Shown: positions 3,301 to 52,808, counted from the first letter of the whole stretch. The stretch: DNA of 57,267 nucleotides, filler included, from Sphacelaria rigidula (GCA_964200075.2; 8 parts of 8 records of this genome joined end to end with filler, not necessarily neighbours in it); one strand, 5' to 3'. Program-made: numbers and translations. Notes: a model not told the origin generated them from the sequence alone.

Positions 3301-3574
3301 CCTTCAAAAATCCCGATCAAAATGACTTTGTTGGACATGGAGACATGAAAAAAAAGAGGTCGTGGCAGTTTTGCGCTAGTCATACTGTACATACGAATAA
3401 CGCGTGGCCTCAGATCTGTTCACGTGGTGGCACGTGTGGTGACTCGACAATATCAATTATTTTAGAATAATTCAAGGCCATTTCCAAGTCACGACTTGGA
3501 AATGGTCATGTCGAAGAAAAGTCCAGCCGTGATTTGATTACCTGCCCGCGTTCGTCGCATCCCTTGTAGTCAAA

Positions 3575-4970
3575 TACACTGACACAGCCCGTAGCCATCG
3601 TTCAAGCCATCACACAGTGCAAACGGCCTCGTAGCGGACGAGAAACGCGCCTACTGCACAGTGCCAAAAAATGCAGCCGCCCACTGTACTTGAACACAGC
3701 GTACTATGTCCAAGTCGCGACATGGAAAAAGTTACATCCAAGTCCAGCGAGTGGAATGCCTATCCGGGTTCGTCCCATGTGCCTTGACATCGACACCATA
3801 GCAGCTGCAATACACTCACACAGTCCGCAGTCATCGTCCAAGCCATCATGGGGTCTAAACGACCTCGTCCCGGACAAGAGACGCGCCTGCTACATAAAAC
3901 AGTGCCAAACATTGTGACACGACTGTACTTGGACATGAGCTATGTCCGAGTCCAGCGAGTGGAATACCTGTCCGCGCTCGTCCCATGTGCTTTGTATCGA
4001 CACCACAGCAGCTGTAGTATACTCACACAGTCCGCAGCCACCGTTCAAGCCATCGTGGGGTGCAAACGTCCTCGTAACGGACGGGGAACGCGCCTGTTGC
4101 ACGTATTGCCAAAAAATACGGTCACCCGATGGACTCGGACAAAACCTATGTCCAAGTCCAGTCGGGTGCAGTGTTCTTGGCATCGTGAGTAGCGTGCGCG
4201 ATTTGCGCCCGTTGCGAGATGGCTTGCACCGTGCGATGGCTTGAGCAATGGCTGCGGGCTATTGGGTATATTTCAGCTGCTGTGGTGGCACTTTCTACGA
4301 TACCCCCCCCCCCCCAAAAAAAAAAACATCCAAAAAGTGTCACGAAAAAAATGGTCATACAGCGCCTGGTGTTTGAGTTCAGGCTGCATGAATCGCCCCA
4401 TATGGGCGACATCGGCGAGAACGAACCCAAGCGTGGGAATTCCCGGCTGCTCGTTGTGCTCGGCTTTTCCATTTTGATTTAAGTGAAGATTTTGCCTCTC
4501 CCCAAACCAGGCAGTTTTGGGCGATGGGGCTATCGTAGAAAGTGTCAGGTGTCCATACAAGGCACATGGGACGAGCGGACAGGTATTCCACTCGCTGAAC
4601 TTGGACATAGTTCATGCCCAAGTCCAGTCGGGTCGCATTATATTTTGGCACTGTATGTAGCAGGCGCGTCTCTTGTCCGGGACGAGGTCGTTTGCACCCC
4701 ACGATGGCTTGAACGGTGGCTGCGGACTGTGTGAGTGTATTGCAGCTGCTGTAATGACGATGCAAGGCACATGGGACGAGCGCGGATGGGTATTATTCCA
4801 TTCGCTGGACGTGGACATAGCTCATGCCCAAGTCCAGTCGGGTGGCAGTATATTTTGGCACTGTGTGTAGCAGGCGCGTTTCTCGTCCGGTACAAGGTCA
4901 TTTGCATCCCAAGATGGCTTGAACGATGACTACGGATGTGTGAGTGTATCACAGCTGCTGTGGTATCGAG
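3575..4970. repeat. Fold-back element built from ~210-230-bp tandem subunits in inverted arms
   Basis: The unit CACACAGTCCGCAG..CCATCGTGGGGTGCAAACG.CCTCGT..CGGAC..GA.ACGCGCCTG occurs three times forward (~3580-4160) and twice in reverse complement (~4545-4970). Confidence 0.8.
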
Positions 4971-5595
4971 GTTCAGGGTTGGGGTTTAGGGCTAGGGCGT
5001 GCCTTGAAGCGTGTCTTCGCATTTTTTTCCGATCGTGACGATGAGGTCGTGGGACTGATTATAGCGAAAATCGCTCATTTTTGTCGAGTTGGGTCCAAGC
5101 GAATTTTCAACCTTTCGATCTATACAAGACAACAGTGAAACTCGTGAACTACATGGTCACTCGTGTACAGTAGACAGTCTGTACTGTCTGCACTGCTTGC
5201 AAACAGTTTGTCTTGAGTGCGTGTGTGCATGTGTGCTTGTTTCGTACAGGAGGATCTTGAAGGAAAGCGGGCAACGTGCAGTGCAGACAGCCCAGTACTG
5301 TCAGTTCTCTCTGCTTACAATTCGGCGTGAAAAATAGGAGCTTCGGCAACATGCAGCTTTGTACTGCCTGCACCGTCCATGAGCGTGCACGCAACTCCGT
5401 TGTCCGCCGTACCACGCAGTTCCGTCGCTGATCCTACCATGAAAGATCAACAAGTTTTCGCCAACAAAAAAAAAGAACAAAGCATACCCAACTACTACAG
5501 TGTATATATCGCTGTGCTCAACTCGTACTCGATGCTGCAGGATTGCGGTGGTAACTGAAAATGAGTTGGACGGAGTTTGCATGGTTCTGTGAACG

Positions 5596-26522: not shown

Positions 26523-27054
26523 CTAGAAAAATGCCAGAAGAAAAGGAAAACAATCAATGCACAGACAGTACCACAAAAGTTGACTCTTTGCGCAACAGTA
26601 CAACAGTACACAATTGCGAGCTGAGCTAACTTCTTAAAAGTATGGTTGTGTCAGCCCCCAGCCGTCGGTCGCGTGTCACATTTTGCGATTTTTTATTCAT
26701 TTTGAAACAACAACGTGTACCGTACTTTTTTCTTGTTTTTTCTTTCTTGCCAAGGATCTGTCGTGAAATGATAGTACTCGCAATTGGAAGTACAATAGTG
26801 CATGCAGTAGTTGTTTTTTTCAACATAGTTTCGTTTTTTCTTTATAACATAATTAATTAATCACCGACATTCCGATTAATCGTGTGGGTCTGTCGCAAAA
26901 ACCGCTCGACACAATGTGGCCGATACCTGAATATCTGACAACCCCACGTGTTTTCTTCCCCTTCAGTCATGTAGTTATTACATCCCCCCACCCCCCCCTC
27001 AAGGGTTGACGTCGATTGGCATCGACGCTGTAAAAGACGCTACTCAATGCATCA

Positions 27055-27516
27055 AGACCACTTTGTATGGCAACCAATCCGTATTTGTAAAAATATGGGG
27101 ATTTCAGCTCGTTTGCATCCGATTTCTTCCCGTGGATTGATTTTTCGGCCCCCAGTCCGTTGGTTCATGTTTTTCGCCTAGCTGTGAGGAAACCAGATCA
27201 ATTCTCCGATTCTCTGGGCGCTGACTTTTGCTTCATCACCTTCCTGCTCAGATCGGGAGACTCCCGCATCTCTCCCGAATCCGGGGCTCGAATCGGGGGA
27301 GATGCCGGAGTCTCCCGATCTGAGCAGGAAGGTGATGAAGCAAAAGTCAGCGCCCAGAGAATCGGAGAATTGATCTGGTTTCCTCACAGCTAGGCGAGAA
27401 ACATAAACCAACGGACTAGGGGCCGAAAAATCAATCCACGGGAGGAAATCGGATGTAAACGAGCTGAAATCCCCATATTTTTACAAATACGGATTGGTCG
27501 CCATACAAATTGGTCT
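27055..27516. mobile_element. Near-perfect ~460-bp palindromic (fold-back) MITE
   Basis: Arms of ~225 bp are reverse complements with few mismatches around a centre near 27285. An older homologue lies at 46494-46966. Confidence 0.88.
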
Positions 27517-27519
27517 GAG

Positions 27520-27975
27520 CTAAAATAGGCAACCAGGTTCCTGTACCGCAATTTTCCTCGTTATTTTGTTCTGCGGTAAGCATAACGGTGGTCGAGCTAA
27601 ATCATTATGTGCGGGGTGGAGAACTCGAACTCCGTCCAAAGGGGATGGTCGTACTACGTAGCGTTAATCTCTTCCGCCACTGTGGAACCCGTGATTGTCT
27701 CTGGAAGTAGCTACACTAAAAAAAAAAAATCATTGGAGGATGTCATCCATACGCACGATAATCAGTACGCTTCGAGCCCAACAATCTTAGCAGGATGCAG
27801 CTCATCCCTCATGCGACTCACTGAACAAATTACGACGCCTCGCGCTTGGTGATTGCGAGCCTGGTTCGGCGAAAACCCGGCGTGCTCCGTCCCGGCTTTG
27901 TAAGGATGCGAGGTCAATGGTCTGATGACTAAGGCATGCACCATCATGAATACATGATTACACCCCCCCCCCTCC
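27520..27975 (+). mobile_element. Oligo(C)-tailed repeat, family B
   Basis: Body and 3' module are homologous to 15029-15520(-). It ends in TACACCCCCCCCCC and is immediately followed by a family A copy. Confidence 0.8.
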
Positions 27976-27979
27976 TTCC

Positions 27980-28261
27980 GGACATACGAAGATAGCATGA
28001 AATCGTTTGATGCATTAGACAGTAGCGAGAAAACGATAGCTATACTAGGGCATAGATGATGGCCACAGACGGCGAAACAGGACGGGGATAAAATACATGA
28101 AAGGTGTTTGTGTAATGTATGTTAGAAACGTAATGAACGCCGGAATGTTGAAGGTGGCTCTACTAGGAGTAGGGACGGTGCTCCGTCTCGAAAGGGATGC
28201 CGTGGTCAATGGTCAAACGACCAAGGCAAGCAACAAAAGAGTACGCCCCTCCCCCCCCCCC
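27980..28261 (+). mobile_element. 5'-truncated family A retroelement end with oligo(C) tail
   Basis: ATGAAATCGTTTGATGCATTAGACAGTAGCGAGAAAA... matches 14343-14749(-). It ends GTGCTCCGTCTCGAAAGGGATG...GAGTACG(C)n. Confidence 0.8.
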
Positions 28262-28355
28262 TTTCCCTCCGGTGAATCGTAGGCAGTAACGATACACCGT
28301 GAGTTCTACTAGGGAAGAGTCGCGTGATTCTTTTTTTCTTCTCTTCATAGATCGT

Positions 28356-28584
28356 GCCGCCGCGCCCCGGTGGTGTAATGGTCCGACTGTCGCTATTAGG
28401 GTGGAGAGAACGGGGGTTCGATTCCCGATGCGTTGAGTTTTTTAATCGTAACGTATGATGTCCACCGCGGAAAGTATGAGAACGTGAGTAAACAAAAGTA
28501 GTCGAGATCAAAATGAAAGGCACGTACGGGGGGAGAGATGGGTTGATCCCTTGAGACCACGGACTCATCCCGAAAGAGGGGAGG
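28356..28584 (+). mobile_element. Second tRNA-derived SINE family
   Basis: Head GCCCCGGTGGTGTAATGG...GGGGTTCGATTCCC (A/B boxes, no proper cloverleaf). The body GAGAGATGGGTTGATCCCTTGAGACCACGGACTC recurs inverted at ~18290-18350. Confidence 0.65.
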
Positions 28585-31500
28585 NNNNNNNNNNNNNNNN
28601 NNNNNNNNNNNNNNNNNNNNNNNNNNNNTTAATTAATTAANNNNNNNNNNNNNNNNNNNNNNNNNNNNNNNNNNNNNNNNNNNNGGGGTGTACTCATGAT
28701 GATGCATGCCATAGTCATAAGACCATAGGGGCGGGGGGGGGGAGGGGGGGGTTTATTCTACGAAAAAGTGGGCTCATACTTGTAGGTATGTCAGACGATA
28801 GAATAGAACAAAGTCGCGGTGCGCTTGTATTTGGGTAAAAACGGTGTCAAGCAGTAGGAAGAGAGCGTTATTTATCGGTAACAAGAGCATGACCCGGGGG
28901 ACGTACAGTAAGTACCACCCACCGGTACCTTGACGCTATGGACGCTCTGGACCCAGCCCGAGCAATGAGGGGAGGGATTAAAACTGTGGCAAGACATGCG
29001 AAAGATAGCATTCTTCAAATAATCTATCCGCCTTTCTATCCAGAACCTAAACTTAGTGCGAGAACGTGAACGGTTGTGTAGAAGGAGGAACGAGACGTGT
29101 TATGATAGACGTGGAAGTGTTGCAAATAAACGAATATGACGTGAGGTCGTTTGGTGCATTAGACAGTAGCGAGAAAACGGTCGCTATGGTAGGAGATGGA
29201 TGGTGGTAACAGACGGCGGAACAGGAAGGGGCATAAGATATGTAGAAGATTCTGGTGTAGTGTGTGGAAGACACATAACGAGCGCGCCCAAATGCTGGAC
29301 GTGTCTCCCTTAGGAGTAAAAAACGGTGCTCCGTTTCAAAACACATGCGTGGTCAATGGTCAATTGGATGAGGCAATGAACAAATACGTACACCCGCCTG
29401 CCCAAAATGGCAAGGCACCCATGAACCAATGTAACCAACTCATGGCTGTCTCTGGAAGTGGCGATGTCAGAGAAAGAAGTAACTCATTCGAGGCTGTCAT
29501 CCTTATCCAAGATGATCAGTACGTTTCGGGCCGAACAATCTTGGCAGGATGCAACCTACGCTTCATGCGACCGGCCGAACACATGACGACCGTTGGTGCT
29601 TGGTGATAGGTTGCGAACCTGGTCCGGCGAAAACCCGGCGTGGTGCCTCTCGGCTTTGTAGGGATGCGAGGCCAACGGTGTACAGTAGTCAGCGTCAGAA
29701 GTATGCATAATTCGTGATTTCTTGGTTTCCCAAAGATTTTCCAAATCTGTTTCGCTCACCACCGCTGATCACAGTGACTGTTGGATGCCAAAAAATCGGT
29801 ATCTGGAGACATTTTGATCCTCTTGACGAATGTTGAAAGAAAACGTAGCTGTGATCGATATTGGAGTGACTTACGGGCTTGACCGCTCTTCGGGAGTCCT
29901 GCGAAAGTGTAACCCCAGGTTCTAGCTTTTCGGTATTTTCGGTGGACCGACTCGATCCCGATCATAGAAGTGAAGACTCAAAAAAAATATATATATAAAT
30001 TTTGAAATATCACCTATTCACTGCGCCAAAGCCGGAAAGTTATGTTTCTTTGACCGCTCACGGCCAGTAACACCCTCTTGATAAACGGGGTATCTAGTCC
30101 GTATTGCCCCCTCAACACCAACTTGGGCATTGTGATTTGAGCACAGTTTGCTCTTTTTGCCGAAACTATCGACGCTAGCACTTTCGAGTGCTCATGGAAA
30201 ATGTTATGCGGAAACCCCCCGAAAAGAGGCCATCCGCAGAAAATACTAGACTGGGGTCTGTGCAGTATAGGAGGGAAACGATCTCGATCGTTATTGTGAA
30301 GAGTTGTATACGTATTCATTTATCTGAATATTTACCGTTCTGTTGCGGATGAACTGGAGAACTGTTTTTATTGGACCAAAAACGGTCAATAACATCCTCG
30401 TGATCAACGGGGTATTTAGTCCGCATCGCCCCAAAAACACTAACTTGGGCATTGCAGTTTGAGCGCGGCCTGTACGCTTCCTCCCTAAATCTACCGGCGC
30501 TGGCACTTTCAAGTAGGGATGAAGAATAGTACTCGAGAAAAGCTCGTAAACTACAACAACTACGAATTCTGAAAACTTGTGATGCCGACTACCATATTGA
30601 CTATGGCATGCATGATCATGAGTACACCCCCCACCTCCTACCCCACTGCCTGGTCCGACGAAAGCCCCGCGTGCTCCGTCCCGGCTTTGTAGGGATGGAC
30701 CCCCTACTGTATGGGGTTGGCGTCGGTTGGCAATGACGGGGTGCAACACGCTACTCACTGCGTAAGCTAGGCAACCAGGTTACCGATGTTTTTTGCCGTT
30801 TGCATTTTTTTCGCGGTAACGACGATGGTGGTCGAGCTGGATCATATTGTGCGAGGTGGGAGAACCTCAACTCCGCGCCAGGAGGTATGATCATACTTCG
30901 TAGTGCTTCAATGGTGAGACACCCGTGAGGCAGTGTGCAACTCGTGGCTATCTCTTGAAGTTTCGAGATCAGAGGACGAAGCAACTTATTCGAAGCTGTC
31001 ATCCTCGTCCAAGATTTAGATGATCCGATCAGATCGCGGAAATTCCCCGAAATTGGTTTTTCACCTACGACCCTAACATTCCGGTTATCGATATCCCAAT
31101 TTGTGTGGCGTGTAGTATTGCAGTTGTCAATAGCTACCAGCAAGCAAAGAAATGGAACCATATTCCGAAGATTTGGTGTGGATACGAAGGTATGAATCAT
31201 CCGAGTTTCTTATCGTCAATAAAAAGCGACATCCCAATTAGTGAAATCCCGTGTTGCAAGCACCCAGCAACGTTACGAGTCCTTCTTACCACTTACCACT
31301 TACCGCCTATCGGCCGATGCACAGAGAAAGGACAGACAGTGCTAGCACCCGTGCGTACCAAGCAGGAGTGCAGTTATACAGTAGGATGCCCACCAAGAGC
31401 ACTGCATCTATTCGAAAAACGAAAGGCCGCTTCCAGACCAAAGTACACACGGGACGACAAGAGACAGCCTAACTCTCTCACCGTGGGCATACTTTTGTTT

Positions 31501-33510: not shown

Positions 33511-36500
33511 TCACCGCTGGCTGAAAGGCGACAAAATAACACGATCGCTGAGCTGGAGGGCCTGGCCGACAGGGTGAACCGCTTCGTAATAGCGCACATG
33601 GCACAAATCCAGGAGCACGCGGAATGGTCCCGCGAATTCTCCATCGAGTGCGCTGGCAGCGACATCAAGGACTGGATGAATGATATCGACCGGGTAGCGA
33701 CATCTCTGCGGCAAACGTATCCTCTTGCCCCGCCGGACTACAACGACGGCGGCACCTGCCCCCTCCCAGCATTTGGGCGAGTGAACAAACTGATCAAGAT
33801 GGGACACCCGCTTTACCTGATTGGCCGGCAGCGGTTGGGATTTTGAGCCCAAGTCCCGACCATCACCAAACGAAAAGCAAGACGCAGCAACAACCTCACC
33901 AACGCCTGCCCCGAGCCAGGAGAAGATGACGCGCCCATCCGCGCCGACACCACCTCAGGGTCTCCGCTCAGGATACAACACGTCCGCAGGCCTCGTGACT
34001 CTTTTGACGAACCTGCCAGAGGAACTCTCCTCGTGGGCCCTGCACATGCGCGTTTGTCTTCGGAACTGGCAGGACCTGCGCTGTACGCGGGGTACGAAAT
34101 GCATGTTCCAAAAGCATGACGAAATTCACCCCGACGTAGCGGGAGGAACGGCCGCCGTCACGGAAGGCGGAAAGGGGCCAGGAAGCAGCGGCGTCGTCAG
34201 CAACAACCAGGAGCCGATTTTGAAGTTTAGTAACGGGGGGGGGGGGGGCGTACTCATTTGTTGCTTGCCTTAGTCATTTGACCATTGACCACGCATCCCT
34301 TTCGAGACGGAAGTAAACGGGGGGAGTGAGGAGTGCAGCCAGGGAACGGCGGAGGCGGAAGCGGTGTAGCGGGGGGAGGAGGAGCGAACGGAGCGAGTGG
34401 AGGCCGCTCGGCGAGCGGATGAGGGTACGGGCCCTGTCGCTTGGCGGCGGAGCCGACCGGGAAGGAGCACATTCCAGCCACACCTTCGTTCACTGACCCA
34501 CGCAGGTGGGTGGGCATCGCTGGAGCACCTCTACGTGGGTCGGTGGCTCCTCATGTTCGCACTGTGGGGCTACAATTACCGACGTAGCAAGTAGAAAAGA
34601 GACGGTTGTACGTAGCAAGGATAGTAGGCTTCGTCAATCGTTCAGGACAGTCTTTCGCATGAGTAGCAACGCAGGGAAGCATAGTGGTACAAATACAGGT
34701 GTATACAACACGTCGCCCCACGTCACGCCTGCTCCGTCTCGAAAGGGATGCGTAGTCAGTGGTCAAACGACTAAGGCAAGCAACAAATGAGTAGCCCCCC
34801 CCCAACGTCGCGCCCGCAGGTTCACCGCCCCAAAGATAGGTCCGACCTGGGAGGCAGATAGGTCAGTAGGTGGGCTACATTGCCTTAAAAATGAAGAAAA
34901 ACACAGTGTACAGCCTCTGAAATCGGCAGCAACACATCAACTTGCAGAATCCAATGAACTGCCTTGTACGACCCCGCCCAACTCGGAAAAATACAGTGAT
35001 AACCCAACCCCAAGCGACATAGCAATCAGTAGGATAACACATGCTGAAAGCGCGAAAAATGGGTCGGCTAAACGATGCACCAAAAATCGGGTAGGAAAAT
35101 CAACAGGACTGTCTCACCATCCCCTGTCAAAAGTGCTTGACGGGAATAACCCTAACTCTAAGTTTAACCCTAAGCCTATCCCTTTATCTTAGCAAAACTA
35201 CAACCCGGCGAAGGTGACCAGTCGGCGTTACTGGCGTCCACCTCTCTCGCCTCTGATCATCTGAGATTATTCGGACCGAGCGAGTGTGGTGAAACCTCAA
35301 TCGTAGCACCTAGTAAAAGTACTGATTGTCCGGCCACACGATGCTATTTTTCCGTGGCCAGCTTCGGCGCTTTTGGAGGATACTGCCTAGAGTTGAAGAT
35401 ATTCTGGCCATACACCCCTCCCCCTGCCCTTACGTAGGAACCCGTCCGAAAAGCAAAAGTAAGAGAAAACTGTTCCATCACAATCAATCTTTTAGAGTTG
35501 CGCGGCATGATGATGATGGCGTGCGTTATCTAGATTGCTTGAGGGAAAAACCACGACCGAGCCAGGAGAACCCGTATTGATGCTGGGCGACAACGCCTCA
35601 GCCGTATCGTGGGTGACCCGGTGTGGGTGTCCTCGAGACAGACGTGCTGGTCTCGTCATGAGAATGATGGGTCGGATGGAAATTACATGGGGATAGTGTC
35701 CAACAGTAAAACACATTCGAGGTACTGTATTGACAATGTCCTGGCCGACGGAATTNNNNNNNNNNNNNNNNNNNNNNNNNNNNNNNNNNNNNNNNNNNNT
35801 TAATTAATTAANNNNNNNNNNNNNNNNNNNNNNNNNNNNNNNNNNNNNNNNNNNNTCGGGCAATCATGCAGGAGAAATCGTGAATTTGGTGATTTTGAGT
35901 CGTGATGATTTGTTCTAACCGTGCAAGCGTCCAGCCTGGTAGTCGGCTACTACTGTTTGACTTGAGATAAGATATGAAGTACTGACAAACAAAACAAAGG
36001 CTGCACTCTAACAGAGCGCCCCCCCCAAATAAGTTGTTATGACTCATGATCAGAGTACAACTAATACGATTGCGGTGACTTGAAGTAAGTACGTATATGC
36101 ACAAACCAATTGTACACATATCAATACGTCGGATAAGATGAAATCATGCGCCTCGGTATTCCGAATCTCTTCGTGTGAGCACAAGTACGAGTGGGGTGTT
36201 TTCCTGTATTTGCTGCCATCTCATGTGCGTCTAAAAACGTTTCTCCTATAACATGACACATCATACATGCATAAACTTGGTTTTCATGAGTGGGTCCCAC
36301 ACCCTGATACCCAGCGTACCGAAAGGGCGGGACAGCGCATGGGGGAGTTGCCAAGCAATACACACACATTTCAATGCAATTTATATCCATGATATATCCT
36401 GGAACATGACGGACGAAAAATTGATCGTACCTGGACGCGAGTATTGCATGGGCGGGTGGGGGAAACTGGGGGGAACTGGGGGGGGCGTACTCATTTGTTA

Positions 36501-36677
36501 CCTGCCTTAATCGTTTGGCCATTGACCACGCACCCCTTTCGAGACGGAGCACCGTTGCGTGGTGGGGGACTGGCCGTGGAGGGTTGAACCTTGCTCGACA
36601 TTGCCGACACAACCCTGTGAAGAGCTCTCATCAGTACAACTATGGTGCTGTACACTTTGGAAGGTTTGTGATGTTAC

Positions 36678-36787
36678 CTTGATTCTTGTCAGCTCCGCCG
36701 GCGTAAACTCACTGGACGCGAAGTACAAATGGGCAGTCACCATCCAGCCCAGCACAGCGTCACCGAGGAACTCCAGCCGTTGGTAGT
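36678..36787 (-). CDS. Dicer-like protein, exon with the RNase III signature
   Basis: (D)YQRLEFLGDAVLGWMVTAHLYFASSEFTPAELTRIK contains the RNase III signature RLEFLGDAVL. Acceptor ATCAG (phase 1), donor AAG|GTAAC. Confidence 0.92.
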
Positions 36788-39823: not shown

Positions 39824-40137
39824 CTTTGTAGCGGCAGCAGAAGCAGCAGCAACAACAACAACGAAGAAGACGGAGACGACGACGGCGACGGTGACACACA
39901 TCACCACAGCAGTTTTTCAAAAGATGGTGATGCATACATTTCTCGTGACAAACAGCCGGTAGCTGCAGGCGAAACATAGACGTTGAGACGAAAAATTCGA
40001 GAACATTTCATACGGGGCGCAAGCTATATTTTCCCTTTAAATTCAACTCATAAAATAAAAATTCGCTCATCAACTATCAAATCGATCAGCGACTTCATCT
40101 CCACCTCATTAATCACACACGAAATCCAACGAAGTAC

Positions 40138-42095
40138 CTTGGGAAGAACACCGGTGTCCGCCAGGTACTCCGCACTCATCAGGGGCTCTCTCCGAATCGG
40201 CCACTGCGCGTCCTCCCTCAACCCTTCGAGCCATTCTCCCTCCTCCTCCTCCTCCTCCTCCTCCTCTTTGCCCTCCTTATCAATCTCCCCCTTTCCTTTT
40301 TCATCATCCCCAGCCGTCTTGCTTTCGCCGGCGGCCGCCTCCTTCCCTACCTCCCCGTCCTTCTTGGGTGCTTCTATTTGCCCCCCCTCGATCACCTTTG
40401 GGCCCTCGGCTCGTGCTGCGACCCTGCCCTCACAGTGATCATCTTCGCTCGCTCGTTTGGCAGCTTCATTGCTGGAACCGTCTTTCGGACCATCGAGGGG
40501 ACCATTGCCCTCACCGACGATATTTTTCTGGGAGGCACACTCCGACTCTTGCGGCGGCGGCGACAGCGACGGCGACGGTAGTGGCGGCGGCGGCTGCTGC
40601 TGCAGCTCTTCCTGCTCGTTTTCGCCGTGCTTTTCGTGGTTGGCGGTCCTGATTCTCGCCTCCGCCGCTGCCGCCCGTAAAGCCCTCGCTGAGGCCGGCG
40701 AGAGAGTCGGCATGACGTTCGAGACGGCCACGGATGGTGACGTGGACGTTGAGGCGCTGGTGGAGCCCACTTTACCGCTCGACCCCCAGCTTCCACCCAG
40801 CCTGTGTCCGCCAACTCCTCCACTCTCACTCCACGTTTGAACATCCTCCAACGAGAGTCCTCGCCGCGAAATGGCGGACCCCCGAACCTCATCACCACTG
40901 ACATCACCAGCAGCCTCAGTGCTGCGTCCCCTCTTCCCGTGCCGGCCCCAGCTTGCGTTGCTGACCATCCCCGCGTCACCGCTCTCGGTGGCCATAGAAC
41001 GCCCGATTTCAGGCGGGACGCATGAATCAGTCCCGCCAACAGCATTGCCGGGAGACGGCGGGGGCGGGGGTGACTGGCTGCGATCAAGAGGCGGGGGCGA
41101 AGGAGTGCGAACAAGCACCCTCTTGTCAGAGACCGTGCTCCGAGGCGAAGGTGGCGGCGGTGGGGAGGGTACACGAGCACTCCTTCCTCTCAGCATTCTG
41201 CGAGCATTAGTCCTAGCGCCGTCTCGGCGAACAGGGGACAACGATCGGGAGCGGCGAACAGGAGACGGCCTTCTCGCCGACGGAGCAGGCGCATCAAAGG
41301 CGCCGAACCTCCCCGGGTCGGCGAGGAGATATCCTGGGGGTTTCCAAAGCCACGGACGCTCAGAATCTTCAACCGCCGTCGGCTTCCCCGCTTTCTCTTC
41401 TTCACCATCGACGTCACCGGAGGCTGCAGCAGTTTCAGGGGACGCGCCGGAAACATCCGCGGTTACGGCGGCGGCCACCGCTGACTCTTTGATTCCATCG
41501 TCATTGCCATCAGTTATGCCGTTACCCACCCCAACCGTCCCTTCGCCGCCGTCACCGCCGCCACCGCCGCCACCACCGCCATTGCACGTGTTCTCACGCG
41601 GAGCCACGTCTCGTCCCATGTCACAGACCCCACTGCTATCGTTGGAATTCGAAACGACCGAAGACGGTGCAGTGCTGCGCGCGTCCTCCCCACCGTTGCC
41701 GACATCTCCGGTAGAAGCACTTCCAGGGCTGTGCCCATCTGGGGTCCTCATACGCTTGACCCCCGCCTCCAGCCTCTCTCCACAGGCCGGTGCCTCCCCT
41801 GCCGCCGCTTCAACATCGCCCTGTTTGCGTTTGCCGGTCGATGACGATGACGATGACCCTGAGCCGCTGAACTTTGACTCTAAATCGTTGGATGCGGGGC
41901 CGACTGTAGCGGCGGCAGCGGTAACGCCGACCGTAGCGGTACTATTGGAGATGATAGTTTCGTCTCCGGATGTGGATATCAAACCAGAAATGCGGTTGCT
42001 ACTGCTGCCGCCGCGTCCTTTTCCCTCGTCTTGGTCCACCGGATCGTGCGGCAGAGAATACCGGGAGAGAGGGCTCTTGTTGCCAACGTCGCCGC
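40138..42095 (-). CDS. Dicer-like protein, 1958-bp low-complexity exon
   Basis: Open frame of ~650 aa rich in G/S/P/E. The acceptor TAG|GC is phase 1 and matches the upstream exon. The donor AAG|GTACT is phase 0 and matches the downstream exon. Confidence 0.75.
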
Positions 42096-42307
42096 CTACT
42101 CGGTGTGCGTTGACACGTGCGCAGCAGGGACGTTCAGAATAGGCTTTTCAATCACACGGCGGAGGACATGCTAATGCTGTGCCTCACCAAGACACGGATA
42201 CCACTGGCGGCTCCATGCATCAATGGCCAGACAACGAGCTACAGTATTACGAGCGACCGAAATAAGAAGCGACGCGAATTCAAGACAAATATATATATGG
42301 TGGCTAT

Positions 42308-43134: not shown

Positions 43135-45658
43135 TCACTGCGTGGTAATGAACCCGGTCTTGATGTCAAGGATGGTGCGGTGTGCCTTGTGCTTCTCGCG
43201 CATCGCCTCGTCTCCGACGTCCGCCTTCGGGACGTCGCCGCCTGCGTCCTTGATTTGCGCCATCTCACGGTACGCCCGGCAGAAGTCTCGAGTGCGTCGC
43301 GCAAAGCGTCGCACTTGGCCCAGCGTCAACTTTGCGACGCGGCACAGAGACTTGACGATAGTAGCGTGTAGGTTTGTTGGCACCCCGTCATTGATTTCCC
43401 GCCGAAAGGGCCCCTTCGACATCCCCCAGGAATATTCGATCCCAACCCCTGCAACCTCGGGGTGGTATTTGGGCGATAGCACCAGGATGTGGCCACGACT
43501 CTCTATGGTGTGCTGCAGTGCTATTTTCTCGTTCCGAAAGTCCGGCAAATTTTCCCAGAACGGTTGCCATGTTCTCCTCCGGCTGTACCTCATCTCCCGT
43601 GCGCATCTTGTCCACCCACAGTCCGCGCTCCCACAACACCTGCTTCATACCTTTCGGTTTACCGACGTAACACTCTCTGATCCACTCCTCCGTTGTTGCG
43701 GTTGCGCTAGTTGCTCCCTCCGTGCCCCCGCCTTCTGAAACGAGAGCGTTATCATTTTTGTTGGATGCTTTCTCTCGTACCTCCTTCGTGTCTCTCTGGG
43801 GGGCATCCACATCGTAAAAGGGTGGCGGGTCACCTGCCTGAAATACCATGCGTTGTGTGTCACCTACGGCGAGCTTCCTCGGATAAGGTTTGGCTCCTGG
43901 GCTGTATACTGTGCTCCACTTTTCTTTTAATTTGTACATGGTCGCCTGCGAGTTGCCCAAACACCCCTCCGTCACTTTGGTATTCCGTAGCATCCTCTGC
44001 GTGCCTCCATATTTGACATTCATGTAGGATGTATGCAGTCCATCCTCACGCATTTTTGAGTGTCCCGCGGAATGATCCACCTCAAACACTATTTGCTTGT
44101 CCTTTTCGATGACCTCTAGAACATCCATGACATCCACGAACTGTTTCTCAAACCGATCGAAATCCCAGGAGCCACCCTTGTCTTTGCCGAACACAAGATG
44201 TCGCGTGCCCGGGGTCCTTTTCAGCGCCGACCGGCCCCGTTCTTCTCGAAATTTGGTTACCCTGTCCAGCTCATCTTGCGACAGAGGCAAGCCGAAGCCG
44301 CGCGTCTCGTCCTGGAAAGCCGAAACCATCTCTGCCGGCCCCTCCGTCTTCTTTCGCGGGCCACGCACACTCTGGATCACCCACTCATTGACCTCGAGCG
44401 CGAACGCTTTGGAAATGCTTTCACCCTGCCCAATGTAGTACACCTCACGATCGCACTTGCACACCTCCTTGGAATGTTGCGCCTTGCAGGAAGCCCGAGC
44501 AGCTTCTGGAAAGCGGACGCTGTAGTGCCCCCCATCTCGCCCGAGAGCACTGCGGAGTGCATCAAAGGTTTCGATCACGCCGCCATCGTTCAAGAGGTCA
44601 ACGTGGAACTCGATGCACGCCTTGCCATCAATTTCGCAGTCGTATACCTCTGCATAAAAATCCTCGTCGCCGCTTTTCTTCAGATTGTCGAAATTCGCTA
44701 GCTCCTGGGGCGATAGAGAAGACTTTTCCACGCGCACCCACAGCGGTTGGCGCAATGCGATTGACCGCTTCTGTTCGATGTACACGTTGCGGCTGTGCAC
44801 TACAGGCCTCTCGTGGCCATCAGTGAAATACGTTTGACTGTGCCCCTCATACGTACACCCCAGTTTTGTCACCCATGAGTAAACCATGGATGTCGAGATA
44901 GGGAGTGTCAGATGATACTGGTCCAGCTTCAGCATCCCTCCTTCGCCCGCGAGTAGGCCGTCATTCACGTATCGACGGACGGACTTGATCCTGACCTGCT
45001 TCTGCGACTTGATCCACCGTAAGAGCTTCAGCTTGATATCCTCCTCGGACAATATCCACTCCCTCTCGTACACCTCCCTTCCGTCGCCCTTGAAGTACCC
45101 CTTGAGTTTCTCAAACTCGCACGCCCACTTCAGAATCGTCCACGGCTTCACGCCTCTGAGGCCGTCACGCACCGTCAGGCTCGCCGCCGTCTTCAGAAGA
45201 GGGGATTCATGGCGAAGCCCGTACGCCTCCGACATAAGGTCGAACACGCGGCGATCGGCGATCCTCACGGCAGTTTGTGTTGCGGGTGTGCCTCCGTCAC
45301 AAATATCTTTCGCTTGCTCCAGGTATTCCAAGACTTTTCCGTTACGCTCACGTTTCGCCTTGAGAATTTCTATTATTGTCGTCGCTTGGATGTGCACACG
45401 AATTCTTTGCGCGTCCGGCACAGGCGAGGACACGCCGGGCCCCACCCCTGCTGCATTTTGAGCTTCTGGGTACACATCCTCGTCGGGCAGGAGTAGCACC
45501 AACGGACGTCCCCACATGTTCGCCGCGAGACGGCGGATCAATGAGTCGAGGATTTCGTTCTGTGTTTTTAGCCCCGTGATCCGTGGACCAAGGTAGGAAG
45601 CACGTCTGCTAAACCTGCCGCAAACCCTGGCATCCCTCCTTCGCCAACCCCGTTCCAA
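43135..45658 (-). pseudogene. IS630/Tc1/mariner-superfamily (DDE) transposase, frameshifted
   Basis: Motifs TDGHER, GQGES (Asp expected at the second G), MVSAFQDE, FEVDHSAGH and PKGMKQVLWERGL. After a frameshift near 43555 it continues LPDFRNEK...RGHILVLSPKYHPEVAGVGIEYSWGMSK (P.Y.PE...IE..W...K). Confidence 0.85.
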
Positions 45659-46493
45659 GGATTTTCGCTCTCGGCTGGAAAGGGGCGACGAAGAAGCGAA
45701 CTCCGTGCGGCAAATTTGGTGCCCTTCCAGGCGTAGCCGCTTAAGTGTTTGGTCTTGGGCGCAGCTGAGTCGGGCGAGGCTGCTTTCCGATTTCCCTGTG
45801 GGATGTGGCGAGGGATGGGATTTGGCCGAGATGGGTTACACACCACCGATGCATGTCGGCGCACCGTGTGCGTACGCACAGCCGTGAACGCCATCTGTGA
45901 CAGCAGCAGCATGTACAACCACGCGTGTTGGAAACATCCAAAAGACGACGTAATTTCTTCCTATGCTTTGCTTCTGTTGACCTTTTCAAACATTTTTTTC
46001 ACATCTTAGTCTACTATGTCGTTTTGTTTGACTTCTTTCTGCTCCTTTTTTTCTTCAGCGAGTAGTTCAGCTTTGTTTTTATTGGGTACGTCCATCATGA
46101 GACCACGGCTGGACCCCTGGGGGATCAGTTTAAGTGCGACAATCGATCAATCAACCAATCAATCAAAATCAATCAACGCCCGGCCTATGACGAGGGTTAT
46201 AAACGTGGGGCACCGATCATAACAGGGTTACAGACTGTGGCTCATGGAGTAGCAAGGAAGTTTACACAATGTACGGACGGCATGGTGCCCGGCCTGCAAC
46301 GCACCGTGCGCGCGTAGAGAACCACGCCATTTGCAGGACTTCACGTCGGGCGAATACACATGCCGTGAAGTCGAGCGTCATCATGGAAACGGTGGAGTAT
46401 GGCATCATTCCATTGCTTGAAGCTGCAGGAGAGCAGCAGTCGTTCCGTCCAGGCCACATCCCGTCCTTCGGGGAGGCAAGTGATTATCACACA

Positions 46494-50097: not shown

Positions 50098-52808
50098 NNN
50101 NNNNNNNNNNNNNNNNNNNNNNNNNNNNNNNNNNNNNNNNNTTAATTAATTAANNNNNNNNNNNNNNNNNNNNNNNNNNNNNNNNNNNNNNNNNNNNGGG
50201 GGCGTACTCATTTGTTGCTTGCCTTAGTCATTTGACCATTGACCACGCATCCCTTTCGAGACGGAGCAGGGCAGGCGAATGGAGCAAGGAAGGCCCCGGG
50301 GGCAGGTGTTCATAGTAGTCGTGATGAGGAGTGCTGCCGACAAGATGGCGAGAGGATGGCGAGTGTAGCGGGAGGGAAATCGGACCCGGGACCAGATCCT
50401 ACTAATCGCAGTTGTTGCGACGGCGGTCTACATGGTCCGCCAGAGGGCAGATCGAAGCATTCAGCCGGGATCTGGCTTGGAGATTCAGACTCCGAGTGTA
50501 GCGACTCAGAGGAAGAGGATTCGGCATCGGAAGCGGGCAAATACTACGACGACGAATTCGCGTTTTGATTGCACCTGTATCGAAAGTCGTAGACATGTTT
50601 CCTGCAGATGAGTTGCGTAGGTATATAAGTAACCGTGGGAGTTATCTTCAGCGGACGGAAGTTATAACCCGTGCGTAGGGTTGATGGGGACGTTGTAGAG
50701 TGCCTGCTGCAGTGCGCCCTTGTGTGCAGACGTCTACGGCGGGTCGTCCGGCGACACCCTCGGGCGAATCGCCGGTTGTATCTCGAGATACTGCGTGATA
50801 CTATAATAGTGGAACGAACGACAAATAAAGCGAAAATGATGATCAAGACGCGGTGTTGCAGAGAACCTTATGGAATATTGTGCAACACGACCACCACACG
50901 CGCGTGGATTGCAGTCGTGAGGCGGCGTTCATAGCGCTCTGCACGGCGGGCGAACCGCCACGAATATTTGGTGTGATAACAACCGATTGTGAAAATTGAG
51001 GACAACGGTTTTCATTGACGACGATAAGTCGGTTTATTACAATCTTCATATGTGTAGACCATTTTTTTTATATATGCCTGCATTCCTTCACGTGCCAATA
51101 GCTATCACCAATTTCTGCATGCCATACAAGATTGAAATCCGATAACCGAATTTGTAGGGTCCCATGTGTATATGTTCTGTGGCCATGGTGGGGGGGGGGG
51201 CGGGTGTGTGATAAAGATGTAACACGTAATCCATCCTCCATGTCGCAGGCTGCACGCTGGAGGAACATCAGATGATGTTTTCCGTCTCTAACCCTTCATT
51301 ATTGCCCACCAAACTTCGGTCCCCATCACACCGCACAGTCGATGCGATGTGACTACGTGTGTTTCGACGCAAACCCTGAAGCAGTTTCCGTGGTATCTCT
51401 CTTTTGTTTCCGGCAGCTTACAGTACCACTGACGACACAAGGAATCGGCAGACCGTGAGTGTTTCCTTTCTTTCATTTTTTTCATTCTTCTCATTTTTCT
51501 TCTCTGATGACGAGCTGGAGTATTGCAATCAGCTACGTCATGCGCGATCATCATCTTTTTTTGTTCGTGCTTGTGCTTGTTGTGTTAGTGTGTGTTTGAT
51601 CGTCGTTATTTCGTTGTCGTTCTTGTTGCTTGGTGGTGTTGGTGGTGGTGTTGGTGTTGGTGTTTTTGTTGTTGTTATCGCTGCCCCCTTTCTTCCCTTC
51701 CTGAGGTCGTTGCACCTGTCTTTTTCTGGTCCTTTCTTTCTTCTTTATTTTTATTATTATGTTCTATTTTTGCTGGTCCTGACCACGGGTCGGATTGTAG
51801 CAACCAGCTAGTGTGAGATAATCAATCAATCAATCAAGTGTGCGTTTACACCTTGCGCGGCGATCCCGTAGGCACGCTTCATGCGCCGCCCCAGCGATAA
51901 TGACAAGCACAAGTCTGGAACATCTTTCCCACTGGCGGGCAATGTTAATTGTTGCATGTATGCTTGCGAGAGAAGATACTCCCCACGCTGTAAACCAAAT
52001 GGACGCGGCGCAATTACTACCTGCTCAATGTGGATATCATGTGACCCGATGGATTTTCACGCGGCACCTCACATGTTGTAACACCCGCCACTGAGATGGC
52101 AATATATCGACGCACACGGTAGTTATCGACACAGATCGAATTGCTCTGTGTAAAAAAAACGCGTACCTAACAGTCCTTCACTTCTTGGCGACCAGCACCT
52201 TTGTCACAAATTGGGAAGTAGGGGTGAAGTGAAGATCATCTACTTCAGATATTGCACTGTTTCGACACTCAATTGAAGTCTGCCAGCGCTTGAACGACGG
52301 CTAGTGTCTAGCAGTACCTGCCTGTAGAGTTTCGGCTTCGTGGCGTCCGTCAGTGGTGAATAATCTTCTATCGCGTGAGGGACGGATATGTTGGAAAATG
52401 ACTTTTTCGTTTGTACAAAAAAAGCAGTACTTTTTTTAGGGATATCCATCGCTGGTTTGTGAGCTGTACTGGGTGGAATCGAGCCGGACTGAGATGAGAA
52501 GGTAGCTTCAAATACATACTATAGCCGTGTATCGCTTTAGTTGCTATGTAACGTTCTGTACACTTCTTAGACTCTGTCGCGTCTTCATTTCGAGGATGGT
52601 GGTGGGAAACGTGACACTAACCCCCGGCGTAACACTACTGGTCTCTATGAAAATTTGATCTGACAGTATATAAAGACAAAAGGGCAAAGGCGCCTTGAAG
52701 GCTACTGCTTGGCGATAGAGTATCTTCGTATCTTCCTACATGTGAGGACGCCTCCGAGTCATTGTGTTGTTTAATTTTCCTGCACATGTATCCACGGTTC
52801 GTTAAGTA

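What the first reader, a model, noticed from the sequence alone, without database searches (positions are those of the whole stretch)
28175..28261. Conserved ~75-90-nt structured 3' module plus oligo(C) tail shared by two repeat families: candidate poly(C)-tailed retroelement system
Seen in sequence: family A ends GTGCTC-CGTCTC-GAAA-GGGATG-CGTGGTCAA-TGGTC-AAAC-GACCA-AGGCAAGCAACAAAT-GAGTAC-G(C)n. Family B ends GTGCTC-CGTCCC-GGCTTTGTA-GGGATG-CGAGGTCAA-TGGTC-TGAT-GACTA-TGGCATGCA..TCAT-GAGTAC-A(C)n. Both can fold the same three-way junction: P1 GTGCTC/GAGTAC, P2 CGTCYC/GGGATG and P3 TGGTC/GACYA. Loops differ completely while stem changes keep pairing (U-G to C-G, G-C to G-U). The upstream bodies look unrelated. 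Roughly 15-20 whole or partial copies are spread over nearly all eight scaffolds. Established knowledge: LINE/SINE partners share a 3' RNA structure recognised by the reverse transcriptase, but their tails are normally poly(A) or short A/T-rich repeats. Inference: an autonomous element (A, zinc-knuckle ORF) and a partner (B) are primed at, or add, C/G homopolymers. This would be an unusual tail or target chemistry.
Basis: partly seen in the sequence, partly recalled or inferred. Interest (0 to 1): 0.85.

Follow-up and report, generated by a model that had tools for sequence, protein, structure and literature searches.

The report
Poly(C)-tailed LINE end and its hitch-hiker
The conserved 70-base block ending in a run of Cs is the tail end of a jumping gene (a LINE retrotransposon) of a brown alga, shared with a short non-coding hitch-hiker element, and both insert at runs of C; the same kind of element has already been catalogued in the model brown alga Ectocarpus.

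Summary
A ~70-nt module followed by oligo(C) occurs about 18-20 times in 7 of the 8 contigs in the window. The organism is a brown alga.

Family A is the 3' end of an APE-endonuclease plus reverse-transcriptase LINE. Full-length copies found elsewhere (L024, L121) carry one ORF of 1253-1382 aa that runs through the module and stops 5 nt before the C-run. Family B is a non-coding partner with an unrelated body and the same 3' module.

Four A insertions have target-site duplications that begin with a C-run. Two of them sit in the C-tail of a B copy. The elements therefore prime at C/G homopolymers.

The proposed three-way junction is compatible with the sequences. A and B differ at 1 of 40 stem bases against 9 of 23 unpaired bases. 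Covariation is not significant.

An Ectocarpus TE library published in 2025 already lists RTE-X LINEs with "(C)n 3'" ends, "C-rich" TSDs and partners that share the 3' end. This is a new member of a known kind.

Two points appear new. The module is coding, and it leaves a fixed-position "GCVVNG" peptide in distant relatives.

The parts
27982..28245 (+). Family A copy: a 5'-truncated LINE 3' end of about 264 nt. It encodes the last ~80 residues of the ORF, with one frameshift.
   Evidence: blastn to L121 4913-5165 at 84%. tblastn to P0059 1174-1253. Homology to 14343-14601 reaches 27986.
28176..28245 (+). 3' module of family A, the finding itself. P1 is GTGCTC/GAGTAC, P2 is CGTCTC-GAAA-GGGATG, P3 is TGGTC-AAAC-GACCA. 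The ORF stop lies inside the 3' strand of P1.
   Evidence: 95.5 bits, E 5e-26.
28246..28272 (+). Oligo(C) tail (C4 T C11) merged with the 3' copy of the target-site duplication (TTTCCCTCCGG).
   Evidence: The 5' copy, (C)10 TCCTTCCGG, lies at 27963-27981.
27563..27972 (+). Family B copy. The body is about 390 nt, the module is at 27880-27954, and the tail is ..TGATTACA(C)10. Its C-tail was the target of the A insertion next to it.
21323..21413 (-). Family B 3' end, cut by the contig end, with the best-preserved B module and a (C)8 tail at 21319-21326.
   Evidence: (55 bits).
21223..21304 (-). Short variant A copy (A'): GTGCCC...GGGCACA plus a C-run. It is inserted in the tail of the B copy above, with TSD (C)6-8 TCCCTCGCC.
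   Evidence: (64 bits).
24078..24163 (+). Family B module plus (C)11. The B body extends upstream to about 23874.
15030..15523 (-). Longest family B copy, about 480 nt, with a (C)27 tail (G-run 15030-15056 on the + strand).
15554..15679 (+). 5'-truncated, decayed family B 3' end.
   Evidence: 15.5 bits, E 0.048.
14343..14744 (-). Longest family A fragment in the window, 402 nt. It holds the C-terminal 131-135 residues of the LINE ORF, including the CCHC knuckle. The tail is lost at the contig end.
   Evidence: L121 4751-5152, 80%. (P0059 1118-1252, 67%).
14742..14807 (-). Short A module copy that directly abuts the 5' end of the 402-nt copy, with no C-run left between them.
29124..29396 (+). 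Old family A fragment (78% to L121), followed by a B fragment at 29436-29681.
34235..34324 (-). Short A copy (module 34249-34311), a (C)14 tail and TSD CCCCCCGTT(T)ACT.
34716..34814 (+). Short A copy (34730-34794), a (C)9 tail and TSD CCCC(A)ACGTC[A/G]CGCC.
36478..36556 (-). Short A copy plus (C)8. It lies downstream of an RNase III-like exon and is probably intronic.
50198..50268 (-). Short A copy, 100% identical to L121 over 71 nt. The tail is cut by the contig start.
43032..43087 (+). 3' half of an A module plus a C-run at a contig start.

Best explanation
The module is the 3'-terminal ~70 nt of a brown-algal non-LTR retrotransposon (LINE). The LINE has a single ORF that encodes an APE-type endonuclease, a reverse transcriptase and a CCHC knuckle. 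The module covers the last ~22 codons, the TGA stop and 5 further bases, and is followed by oligo(C).

Family A copies in the window are 5'-truncated copies of this LINE. Family B is a non-autonomous element of at least 480 nt with no coding capacity. It carries the same 3' module and is mobilised in trans.

Inferred mechanism (target-primed reverse transcription):
1. The endonuclease nicks the G-strand of a C·G homopolymer.
2. The freed oligo(G) 3' end anneals to the oligo(C) that follows the module in the RNA.
3. The reverse transcriptase, bound to the module, starts cDNA synthesis there. This is 'stringent' 3'-end recognition.
4. The second nick falls 12-20 bp downstream, so the target-site duplication begins with the C-run.
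5. Each new tail is a new target, which gives nested and tandem copies.

Shown here: the anatomy, the parent ORF, the TSDs and the nesting. Inferred: binding of the RT to the module, the RNA fold and the nick site.
For: Parent element:
- L024 has a 1253-aa open frame, and L121 a 1382-aa stop-to-stop frame, that run through the module and end at TGA in AAATGAGTACG just before (C)8 and (C)13.
- Pfam finds RVT_1 at 7.7e-33 and Exo_endo_phos at 3.1e-11.
- No second ORF of 100 aa or more lies on that strand of L121.

Window A copies:
- They match L121 only at its 3' end, with 5' ends at L121 positions 4751, 4888, 4913 and six times at 5082-5090.
- They translate to the C-terminus of the ORF.

Family B:
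- No protein similarity.
- A 5-nt longer P2 loop breaks the frame.

Module conservation:
- A and B differ at 1 of 40 stem bases, against 9 of 23 aligned unpaired bases plus 12 indel columns. Fisher p = 2.6e-4.
- The majority letter in read contigs restores GGGATG in B at 27903.
- Variant A' has GTGCCC/GGGCAC, a U-A to C-G double change in P1.

Target sites:
- TSDs that start with a C-run are seen in 4 of 9 A copies examined. One is ambiguous, one has none, and three cannot be judged.
- Two of the four insertions sit in B tails.
- The 3' run is longer than the 5' run in 3 of the 4.
- C/G runs of 7 or more number 42, against a mean of 5.7 (maximum 12) in 200 shuffles.

Precedent: Ectocarpus RTEX-1/2_Ec32 are listed as 'single EN-RT ORF; (C)n 3'' with TSD 'C-rich'. 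RTEX-N1/N2 share 60-100 bp of the 3' end and 'can be present in tandem'. Ectocarpus proteins are 71-44% identical to P0059 over its last 400 residues and end in the same peptide.
Against: Covariation does not exceed the controls.
- On 15 clean copies, 172 of 500 shuffles reach the observed percentage paired and 152 of 500 reach the observed number of double changes.
- On 18 distinct rows, which include weak matches, the figures are 12 of 500 and 9 of 500.
- The RNAalifold covariation term is +0.21, and it predicts a different P3.

Single-sequence folds are unremarkable.
- z-scores run from -2.8 to +0.9.
- The best B copy does not form P1 or P3 in its minimum-energy fold.

Coding could explain part of the conservation. 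In A the module is coding, and its peptide is conserved in distant relatives.

Gaps in the evidence.
- No RT or EN domain was found in the window itself. The parent is known only from two contigs of other assemblies, 95-100% alike to each other.
- Assignment to the RTE-X clade was not tested by phylogeny.
- One short copy (14742-14807) has no C-run at all.
Confidence: 0.85

Rival explanations
1. The element has no C-tail of its own. It is a site-specific inserter into pre-existing C-runs, and every C at its 3' end comes from the target (the duplicated run). The G-run primer starts directly on ...GUACG.
For: All four clear TSDs begin with a C-run, so the run pre-exists. The Ectocarpus table calls it '(C)n termini/TSD'. 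One copy (14742-14807) ends in GAGTAC with no C.
Against: The 3' run is longer than the 5' run in 3 of 4 cases: 14 against 6, 9 against 4, and 4+11 against 10. Copies at unrelated loci (L024, L045, L121) all carry 8-13 C. B tails reach 27 C. Any transcript of a genomic copy carries the run behind the module.
Confidence: 0.2
2. The module is conserved only as a protein-coding C-terminus of the LINE. B is a chimera that picked up a LINE 3' fragment by chance or by template switching. No RNA structure is recognised.
For: The module lies inside the ORF. The peptide [CR]V[VA][NDY]G sits 7-8 residues from the end in 21 of the 23 proteins that carry it, out of 124 homologues examined. There is no significant covariation.
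Against: B does not keep the frame: its loop is 5 nt longer and there are stops in the corresponding frames (read from the sequence). Yet it keeps 39 of 40 stem bases while 9 of 23 unpaired bases differ. B is very abundant in the read contigs, so its 3' end is functional for mobilisation. The Ectocarpus partners also share just the 3' 60-100 bp.
Confidence: 0.1
3. The module is the terminal inverted repeat of a DNA transposon or MITE. The pair at 34235-34311 (-) and 34730-34803 (+) is inverted with the C-runs facing outward.
For: The inverted pair lies about 420 bp apart.
Against: Each member of the pair has its own TSD in the retroposon arrangement (5' flank against behind-the-tail). The outer flanks of the pair do not match each other. 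Other copies are single, direct or nested. The module is the end of an EN-RT ORF.
Confidence: 0.01
4. The module is a processed small RNA: a self-cleaving ribozyme, or a tRNA-like 3' end with an acceptor-like P1, a discriminator base and CCC. Its ~66-70-nt product is itself the main retroposed unit.
For: Six of nine A copies start within 8 nt of the first base of P1. In 2 of 4 runs the consensus of the letters before the module is a C-run, and in none is it the LINE's own upstream sequence (table 7). Module-(C)n-module joints are seen (table 5c).
Against: Rfam finds nothing for the module at the gathering cut-off or at E<=5. ARAGORN finds nothing. The 5' ends scatter over 5082-5090 instead of one position. 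Early loss of the template after the RT-bound module would give the same picture.
Confidence: 0.07

Closest known systems
Ectocarpus RTE-X LINEs RTEX-1_Ec32 / RTEX-2_Ec32 and their non-autonomous partners RTEX-N1_Ec32 / RTEX-N2_Ec32 (Genome Biol 2025, 26:320, PMC12477816). I read passages of the main text and supplementary table 1, part 1 of 3.
   Same: A single EN-RT ORF, a '(C)n 3'' end and a 'C-rich' TSD. Partners have an unknown 5' head and share only the last 60-100 bp. Tandem occurrence and very high copy number are also shared. Ectocarpus proteins 71-44% identical to P0059 end in the same peptide.
   Different: This is another order of brown algae. The paper's main text does not mention the C tail, any RNA fold or the coding nature of the 3' end (no occurrence of 'C-rich'). 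The consensus FASTA files of that library could not be read here, so identity of the modules is inferred, not shown.
Stringent-type LINE/SINE pairs, for example eel UnaL2/UnaSINE1 (review PMC3747384; I read passages only).
   Same: The LINE and its partner share a conserved 3' end with a stem-loop. A short terminal repeat follows, thought to serve in priming and slippage.
   Different: The tail here is a C homopolymer instead of TGTAA, TAA or A repeats. The recognition element lies inside the ORF, not in a 3' UTR. Dependence on the module has not been tested.
Mammalian L1 / Alu (relaxed type; from established knowledge).
   Same: The logic of homopolymer tail and homopolymer target is the same. 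The nicked strand's homopolymer end anneals to the complementary RNA tail, and the TSD begins with the homopolymer.
   Different: C·G replaces A·T. The tail is templated in the DNA copy and is not added by polyadenylation. The partners share a specific 3' sequence.

Membership tests
APE-type non-LTR retrotransposon (LINE) | Reverse transcriptase domain | tested here: met
   PF00078 at 7.7e-33 in P0059, from L024. Not present in the window itself.
APE-type non-LTR retrotransposon (LINE) | N-terminal apurinic-like endonuclease | tested here: met
   PF03372 at 3.1e-11 and PF14529 at 9.2e-7.
APE-type non-LTR retrotransposon (LINE) | 5'-truncated copies that share the 3' end, with TSDs of variable length | tested here: met
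   5' ends lie at nine different L121 positions. TSDs of about 13-20 bp are seen in 4 of 9 A copies.
RTE-X clade (as annotated for Ectocarpus RTEX-1/2_Ec32) | Placement of the RT domain in the RTE-X clade by phylogeny | not testable with these tools
   No named reference sequences were at hand. The library FASTA is unreadable. The atlas and protein searches gave no clade names.
RTE-X clade (as annotated for Ectocarpus RTEX-1/2_Ec32) | Single EN-RT ORF, (C)n 3' end, C-rich TSD | tested here: met
   compared with the table rows.
RTE-X clade (as annotated for Ectocarpus RTEX-1/2_Ec32) | Sequence homology to the Ectocarpus elements | tested here: inconclusive
   Ectocarpus proteins are 71-44% identical over the last 400 aa. 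That these proteins are RTEX-1/2_Ec32 was not verified.
SINE in the strict sense (family B) | Pol III promoter head derived from tRNA, 5S or 7SL | tested here: not met
   No tRNA and no Rfam family anywhere in the window, the B bodies included. The 5' end of B is not firmly defined. B is therefore filed as a LINE-dependent non-autonomous element.
Stringent-type LINE/partner pair | The partner shares the LINE's 3' end but not its body | tested here: met
Stringent-type LINE/partner pair | The 3' end is required for retrotransposition and is bound by the RT | not testable with these tools
   Needs an assay.
Structured RNA element (three-way junction) | Significant covariation in the helices | tested here: not met
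   Power is low because the copies fall into about three lineages.
DNA transposon TIR / MITE | Inverted termini with one TSD flanking the pair | tested here: not met
Known self-cleaving ribozymes or tRNA-like RNAs | Match to a curated covariance model | tested here: not met
   Rfam gathering cut-off, 0 hits. At E<=5 on 27840-28460, two unrelated weak hits and none on the module.

The most novel reading that the evidence does not exclude
The module may be an old, bifunctional coding-and-RNA element of a whole LINE clade. On this reading, the fixed-position C-terminal peptide G-[CR]-V-V-N-G, 7-8 codons before the stop in relatives only 40% identical, is the protein shadow of the RT-binding RNA. 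The bare 66-70-nt module plus (C)n would then be the dominant retroposed unit (a 'nano-SINE'). It would arise because the template is processed, or the RT released, exactly at the base of P1. The stem-discriminator-CCC end might act like a tRNA-type 3' end for priming.
Probability: 0.15. Interest if true: 0.65.

Novelty: new member of a known kind. Interest (0 to 1): 0.4.

Why it matters
Poly(C)-tailed LINEs that prime on G-runs are the C·G counterpart of the L1 poly(A)/T-run system. They are rare, and so far documented only as notes in one supplementary table.

This case adds direct target-site evidence that the C-run pre-exists and is lengthened. It explains why these elements nest in each other's tails and why homopolymer runs break the assembly at them. 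It also shows that the recognition module sits inside the ORF.

It gives brown-algal genome annotators a compact signature: the module plus (C)n. It also gives experimenters a small, defined RNA/target pair for testing how a LINE chooses its template and its nick site.

Tried and rejected
- Whole genome: none is held.
- Earlier findings: none by place or by sequence.
- RT/EN in the window: Pfam on 184 ORFs found none. About 100 of the 275 ORFs of 75 aa or more, mostly on contigs 6-8, were not scanned.
- Metagenome scan with the 20-mer: 120 loci, of which 118 are chance matches. They have no module by nhmmer and no LINE by tblastn.
- Viral-contig scan with the protein alignment: nothing.
- The covariance model on the two MAGs behind L121 and L122 found only the known copy.
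- Sequencing runs: no RNA holder listed. X8 is only guessed to be RNA, so nothing is said on expression.
- Read laying gave no clean empty-site joint for the A insertion at 27982-28245 (table 5). The joints listed have short sides and come from repeats.
- The protein atlas gave no clade or useful taxa.
- Literature: searches for RTE-X/RTEX and for 'poly C' with non-LTR terms found no other description of C-tailed LINEs. This covers only the open-access library searched.
- MAFFT misaligned the B loop, so the model-based alignments A4 and A5 were used. These lean towards the given structure.
- The hammerhead idea (CUGAUGA in two B copies) was dropped. The motif is absent from A and from other B copies, and Rfam finds nothing.

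Full report
**What the window is**

The 57,267 bases are eight 7071-bp contigs joined by N44-TTAATTAATTAA-N44 linkers. A transposase-like ORF at 43388-45835 (-) is 96% identical to an NCBI protein whose source names a brown alga, Sphacelaria rigidula. That protein sits on a 7071-bp contig. The next hits are Laminaria, Ectocarpus and Pylaiella. The genome is therefore a fragmented brown-algal assembly. No whole genome is held for it.

**The observation**

Family A lies at 28176-28245 (+), followed by C4 T C11 up to 28261. Family B is seen best at 21323-21401 (-).

- The 20-mer core matches 11 times with up to 3 mismatches, against 0 expected in 100 shuffles.
- A profile HMM finds 20 stretches, 18 of them at E<=2.5e-6, on 7 of 8 contigs.
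- A covariance model finds 19 matches, 16 of them at E<=2.6e-8.
- Rfam (gathering cut-off, and E<=5 around the finding) and ARAGORN find nothing on the module.

**What family A is**

No ORF of the window has an RT or endonuclease domain. This covers 184 ORFs scanned; about 100 of the 275 ORFs of 75 aa or more, mostly on contigs 6-8, were not scanned.

A scan of public metagenome contigs with the 20-mer gave 120 loci. Only two, L024 and L045, carry the whole module.

- In L024 an open frame of 1253 aa runs on the module's strand, through the module. It ends at the TGA of AAATGAGTACG, 5 nt before (C)8.
- That frame has Exo_endo_phos (3.1e-11), RVT_1 (7.7e-33) and a CX1CX8HX4C knuckle near the end.
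- A second, 95%-identical copy is L121, an algal contig binned into a bacterial MAG. It has a 1382-aa stop-to-stop frame, no other ORF of 100 aa or more on that strand, and (C)13.

The window's A copies align only to the 3' end of L121. Three are longer, starting at L121 4751, 4888 and 4913. Six are short, starting at 5082-5090. They translate to the C-terminus of the ORF, and the 402-nt copy at 14343-14744 includes the knuckle. Family A is thus a set of 5'-truncated copies of an APE-type LINE, and the 'module' is its last ~22 codons plus the stop and GTACG.

**What family B is**

B copies share a body of about 390-480 nt with each other (23874-24152, 27563-27954, 15045-15523, 29436-29679). 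The body has no nucleotide similarity to L121 outside the module and no protein similarity to the LINE.

In B the P2 loop is 9 nt instead of 4, so the LINE frame is not kept. No tRNA or other Pol III-type head was detected. B is a non-autonomous partner that carries only the LINE's 3' end.

**The tail and the target**

For four A copies both flanks are readable and the boundaries are clear. All four have a target-site duplication that begins with a C-run (coordinates).

| A copy | 5' TSD copy | 3' TSD copy (merged with the tail) |
|---|---|---|
| 34249-34311 (-) | CCCCCCGTTTACT | (C)14 GTTACT |
| 34730-34794 (+) | CCCCACGTCACGCC | (C)9 AACGTCGCGCC |
| 21238-21304 (-) | (C)8 TCCCTCGCC | (C)6 TCCCTCGCC |
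| 27982-28245 (+) | (C)10 TCCTTCCGG | C4TC11 TTTCCCTCCGG |

In the last two rows the duplicated C-run is the tail of a B copy, so A inserted into B's tail. Of the other five A copies, one is ambiguous, one shows no TSD, and three are nested or cut by contig ends.

The C-run therefore pre-exists at the target. It is longer on the 3' side in 3 of the 4 cases, which suggests that Cs are also brought in by the template or by slippage.

Tails reach 27 C on B (15030-15056). Runs of 7 or more C or G number 42 in the window, against a mean of 5.7 and a maximum of 12 in 200 shuffles.

The inverted pair at 34235-34311 / 34730-34803 is two independent insertions with separate TSDs, not a TIR pair.

**Abundance**

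When Logan contigs of four runs were laid on 27500-28560 at 90% likeness or more, 66,100 contigs of run X1 alone were placed. Almost all fell on the repeat parts, while the unique flank is covered by single contigs (tables 1, 2, 8). The tool warns that these summed depths are not copy numbers.

- The majority letters correct private changes of this locus. 27903 A>G restores GGGATG in B. The extra C at 28200 is private. 28222 C>T makes GACTA the common form (tables 3, 4).
- Contigs with module-(C)n-module joints exist (table 5c).
- The consensus before the module is a C-run in 2 of 4 runs. In none is it the LINE's own upstream sequence (table 7). This fits the six short copies in the window.

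**The RNA fold**

The three-way junction can be drawn for A, and it is the minimum-energy fold of complete A copies. The statistics are weak.

- z-scores run from -2.8 to +0.9.
- The best B copy folds otherwise, apart from P2.
- On 15 clean copies, 92.6% of cells pair, against 31-48% when the partners are slid. However, 172 of 500 column shuffles do as well, and double changes are not enriched (152 of 500).
- With weak matches included, the figures are 12 of 500 and 9 of 500.
- RNAalifold keeps P1 and P2 but proposes another P3, with a covariation term of +0.21.

Genomic copies are dead fossils of about three master lineages (A, A', B), so power is low. Three observations do speak for a constrained structure or binding site.

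- A and B differ at 1 of 40 stem bases, against 9 of 23 aligned unpaired bases plus 12 indel columns (p = 2.6e-4).
- The single stem difference is U·G to C-G.
- A' has GTGCCC/GGGCAC, a U-A to C-G double change plus G·U to G-C in P1.

I regard P2 as likely, P1 as plausible and P3 as open.

**A coding shadow in distant relatives**

The C-terminal peptide ...NGAPSRKG[CR]VVNGQMTKASNK is kept in Ectocarpus proteins that are 71% identical over the last 400 residues. A shorter form...NNAPSSRGRVVNGLTAK, is found in proteins 50% and 44% identical.

Among 124 homologues examined, many of them truncated gene models, 23 have [CR]V[VA][NDY]G in their last 30 residues. In 21 of these it lies 7-8 residues before the end. 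VVNG occurs 16 times in those tails but only once in the remaining 137,857 residues.

G-C-V-V-N-G is the translation of GGATGCGTGGTCAATGG, which spans the P2 3' strand, the junction and the start of P3. B keeps these bases without coding. A likely but unproven reading is that the RNA or DNA element is old, and the peptide is its by-product. The DNA of those relatives could not be fetched.

**Comparison with what is known**

The curated Ectocarpus TE library (Genome Biol 2025, 26:320) is the closest precedent. I saw passages of its main text and part 1 of 3 of supplementary table 1.

- RTEX-1_Ec32 is listed as 'single EN-RT ORF; (C)n 3'', and RTEX-2_Ec32 as '(C)n termini/TSD'. The TSD column for both reads 'C-rich'.
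- RTEX-N1 (607 bp, more than 6000 copies, 'can be present in tandem') and RTEX-N2 (188 bp) share only the last 60-100 bp.
- The main text does not discuss the C tail.

That is the same architecture as here, so the finding is a new member of a known kind. Membership in RTE-X itself rests on this parallel and on protein homology to Ectocarpus. I could not run a phylogeny with named references or read the library FASTA.

Functionally it works like a stringent-type LINE/SINE pair such as UnaL2/UnaSINE1 (passages). It combines this with an L1-like homopolymer tail/target logic, transposed from A·T to C·G.

I found no other description of C-tailed LINEs in the open-access library searched.

**Verdict**

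The retroelement interpretation is supported. The RNA junction is not demonstrated. The novelty is reduced by the Ectocarpus annotation.

Still new or open are four points: the coding nature of the module, its peptide shadow in distant relatives, the direct TSD evidence for self-targeting of tails, and the unexplained pile-up of 5' ends at the base of P1.

Noticed in passing
window 28357-28443 (+): An ~87-nt tRNA-like repeat with a T-arm-like GGTTCGATTCC, followed by TTTTTT. It is very abundant in the read contigs (tables 2 and 8) but is not called by ARAGORN or Rfam. It may be a tRNA-derived SINE head or pseudogene family. Some contigs join the A tail at 28249 directly to 28359.
   Followed up: partly
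window 43388-45835 (-): An 815-aa open frame (P0001) with relatives in many brown algae and, distantly, in proteins with PF13358 (DDE_3 transposase). Pfam itself finds nothing. It is probably a DDE transposon gene family of brown algae.
   Followed up: partly
window 26357-26448 and 26488-26579: Direct repeats that start with G23 and G36 runs, followed by CTAAAAAAAAGG / CTAGAAAAATGC. On the other strand these are ...TTTTYTAG(C)23-36. This may be a further (C)n-tailed family with a different 3' end. Other long runs without the module lie at 4303, 13176, 14896 and 24258.
   Followed up: no
window 34249-34311, 34730-34794, 36486-36556, 50203-50268, 21238-21304, 14742-14807: Six of nine A copies begin within 8 nt of the first base of stem P1 (L121 positions 5082-5090). 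This is not the broad spread expected of random 5' truncation. The cause is unknown: RT release, RNA processing or a mini-element.
   Followed up: partly
L121 470-540 (-): A degenerate module-like stretch (GGTGCTCCGTCTC ... GGCAAGGCATTTGTTTCATGAG) in reverse orientation, upstream of the full-length LINE. It may be a remnant of another subfamily.
   Followed up: no
window 20756-21082 (+), 24378-24740 (-), 36675-36782 (-): Host gene fragments: a class I tRNA synthetase exon (1.1e-22), PPR repeats (5.7e-13) and an RNase III-like exon (5.3e-6). The repeat copies lie next to them, probably in introns or flanks.
   Followed up: no
window 40048-42147 (-): A 699-aa open frame of low complexity (runs of G, S, P, E) in a GC-rich stretch of up to 61% GC, with no family match.
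   Followed up: no
window 3573-4969: A block of direct and inverted repeats of about 150-380 bp at 77-86% identity, unrelated to the A and B families.
   Followed up: no
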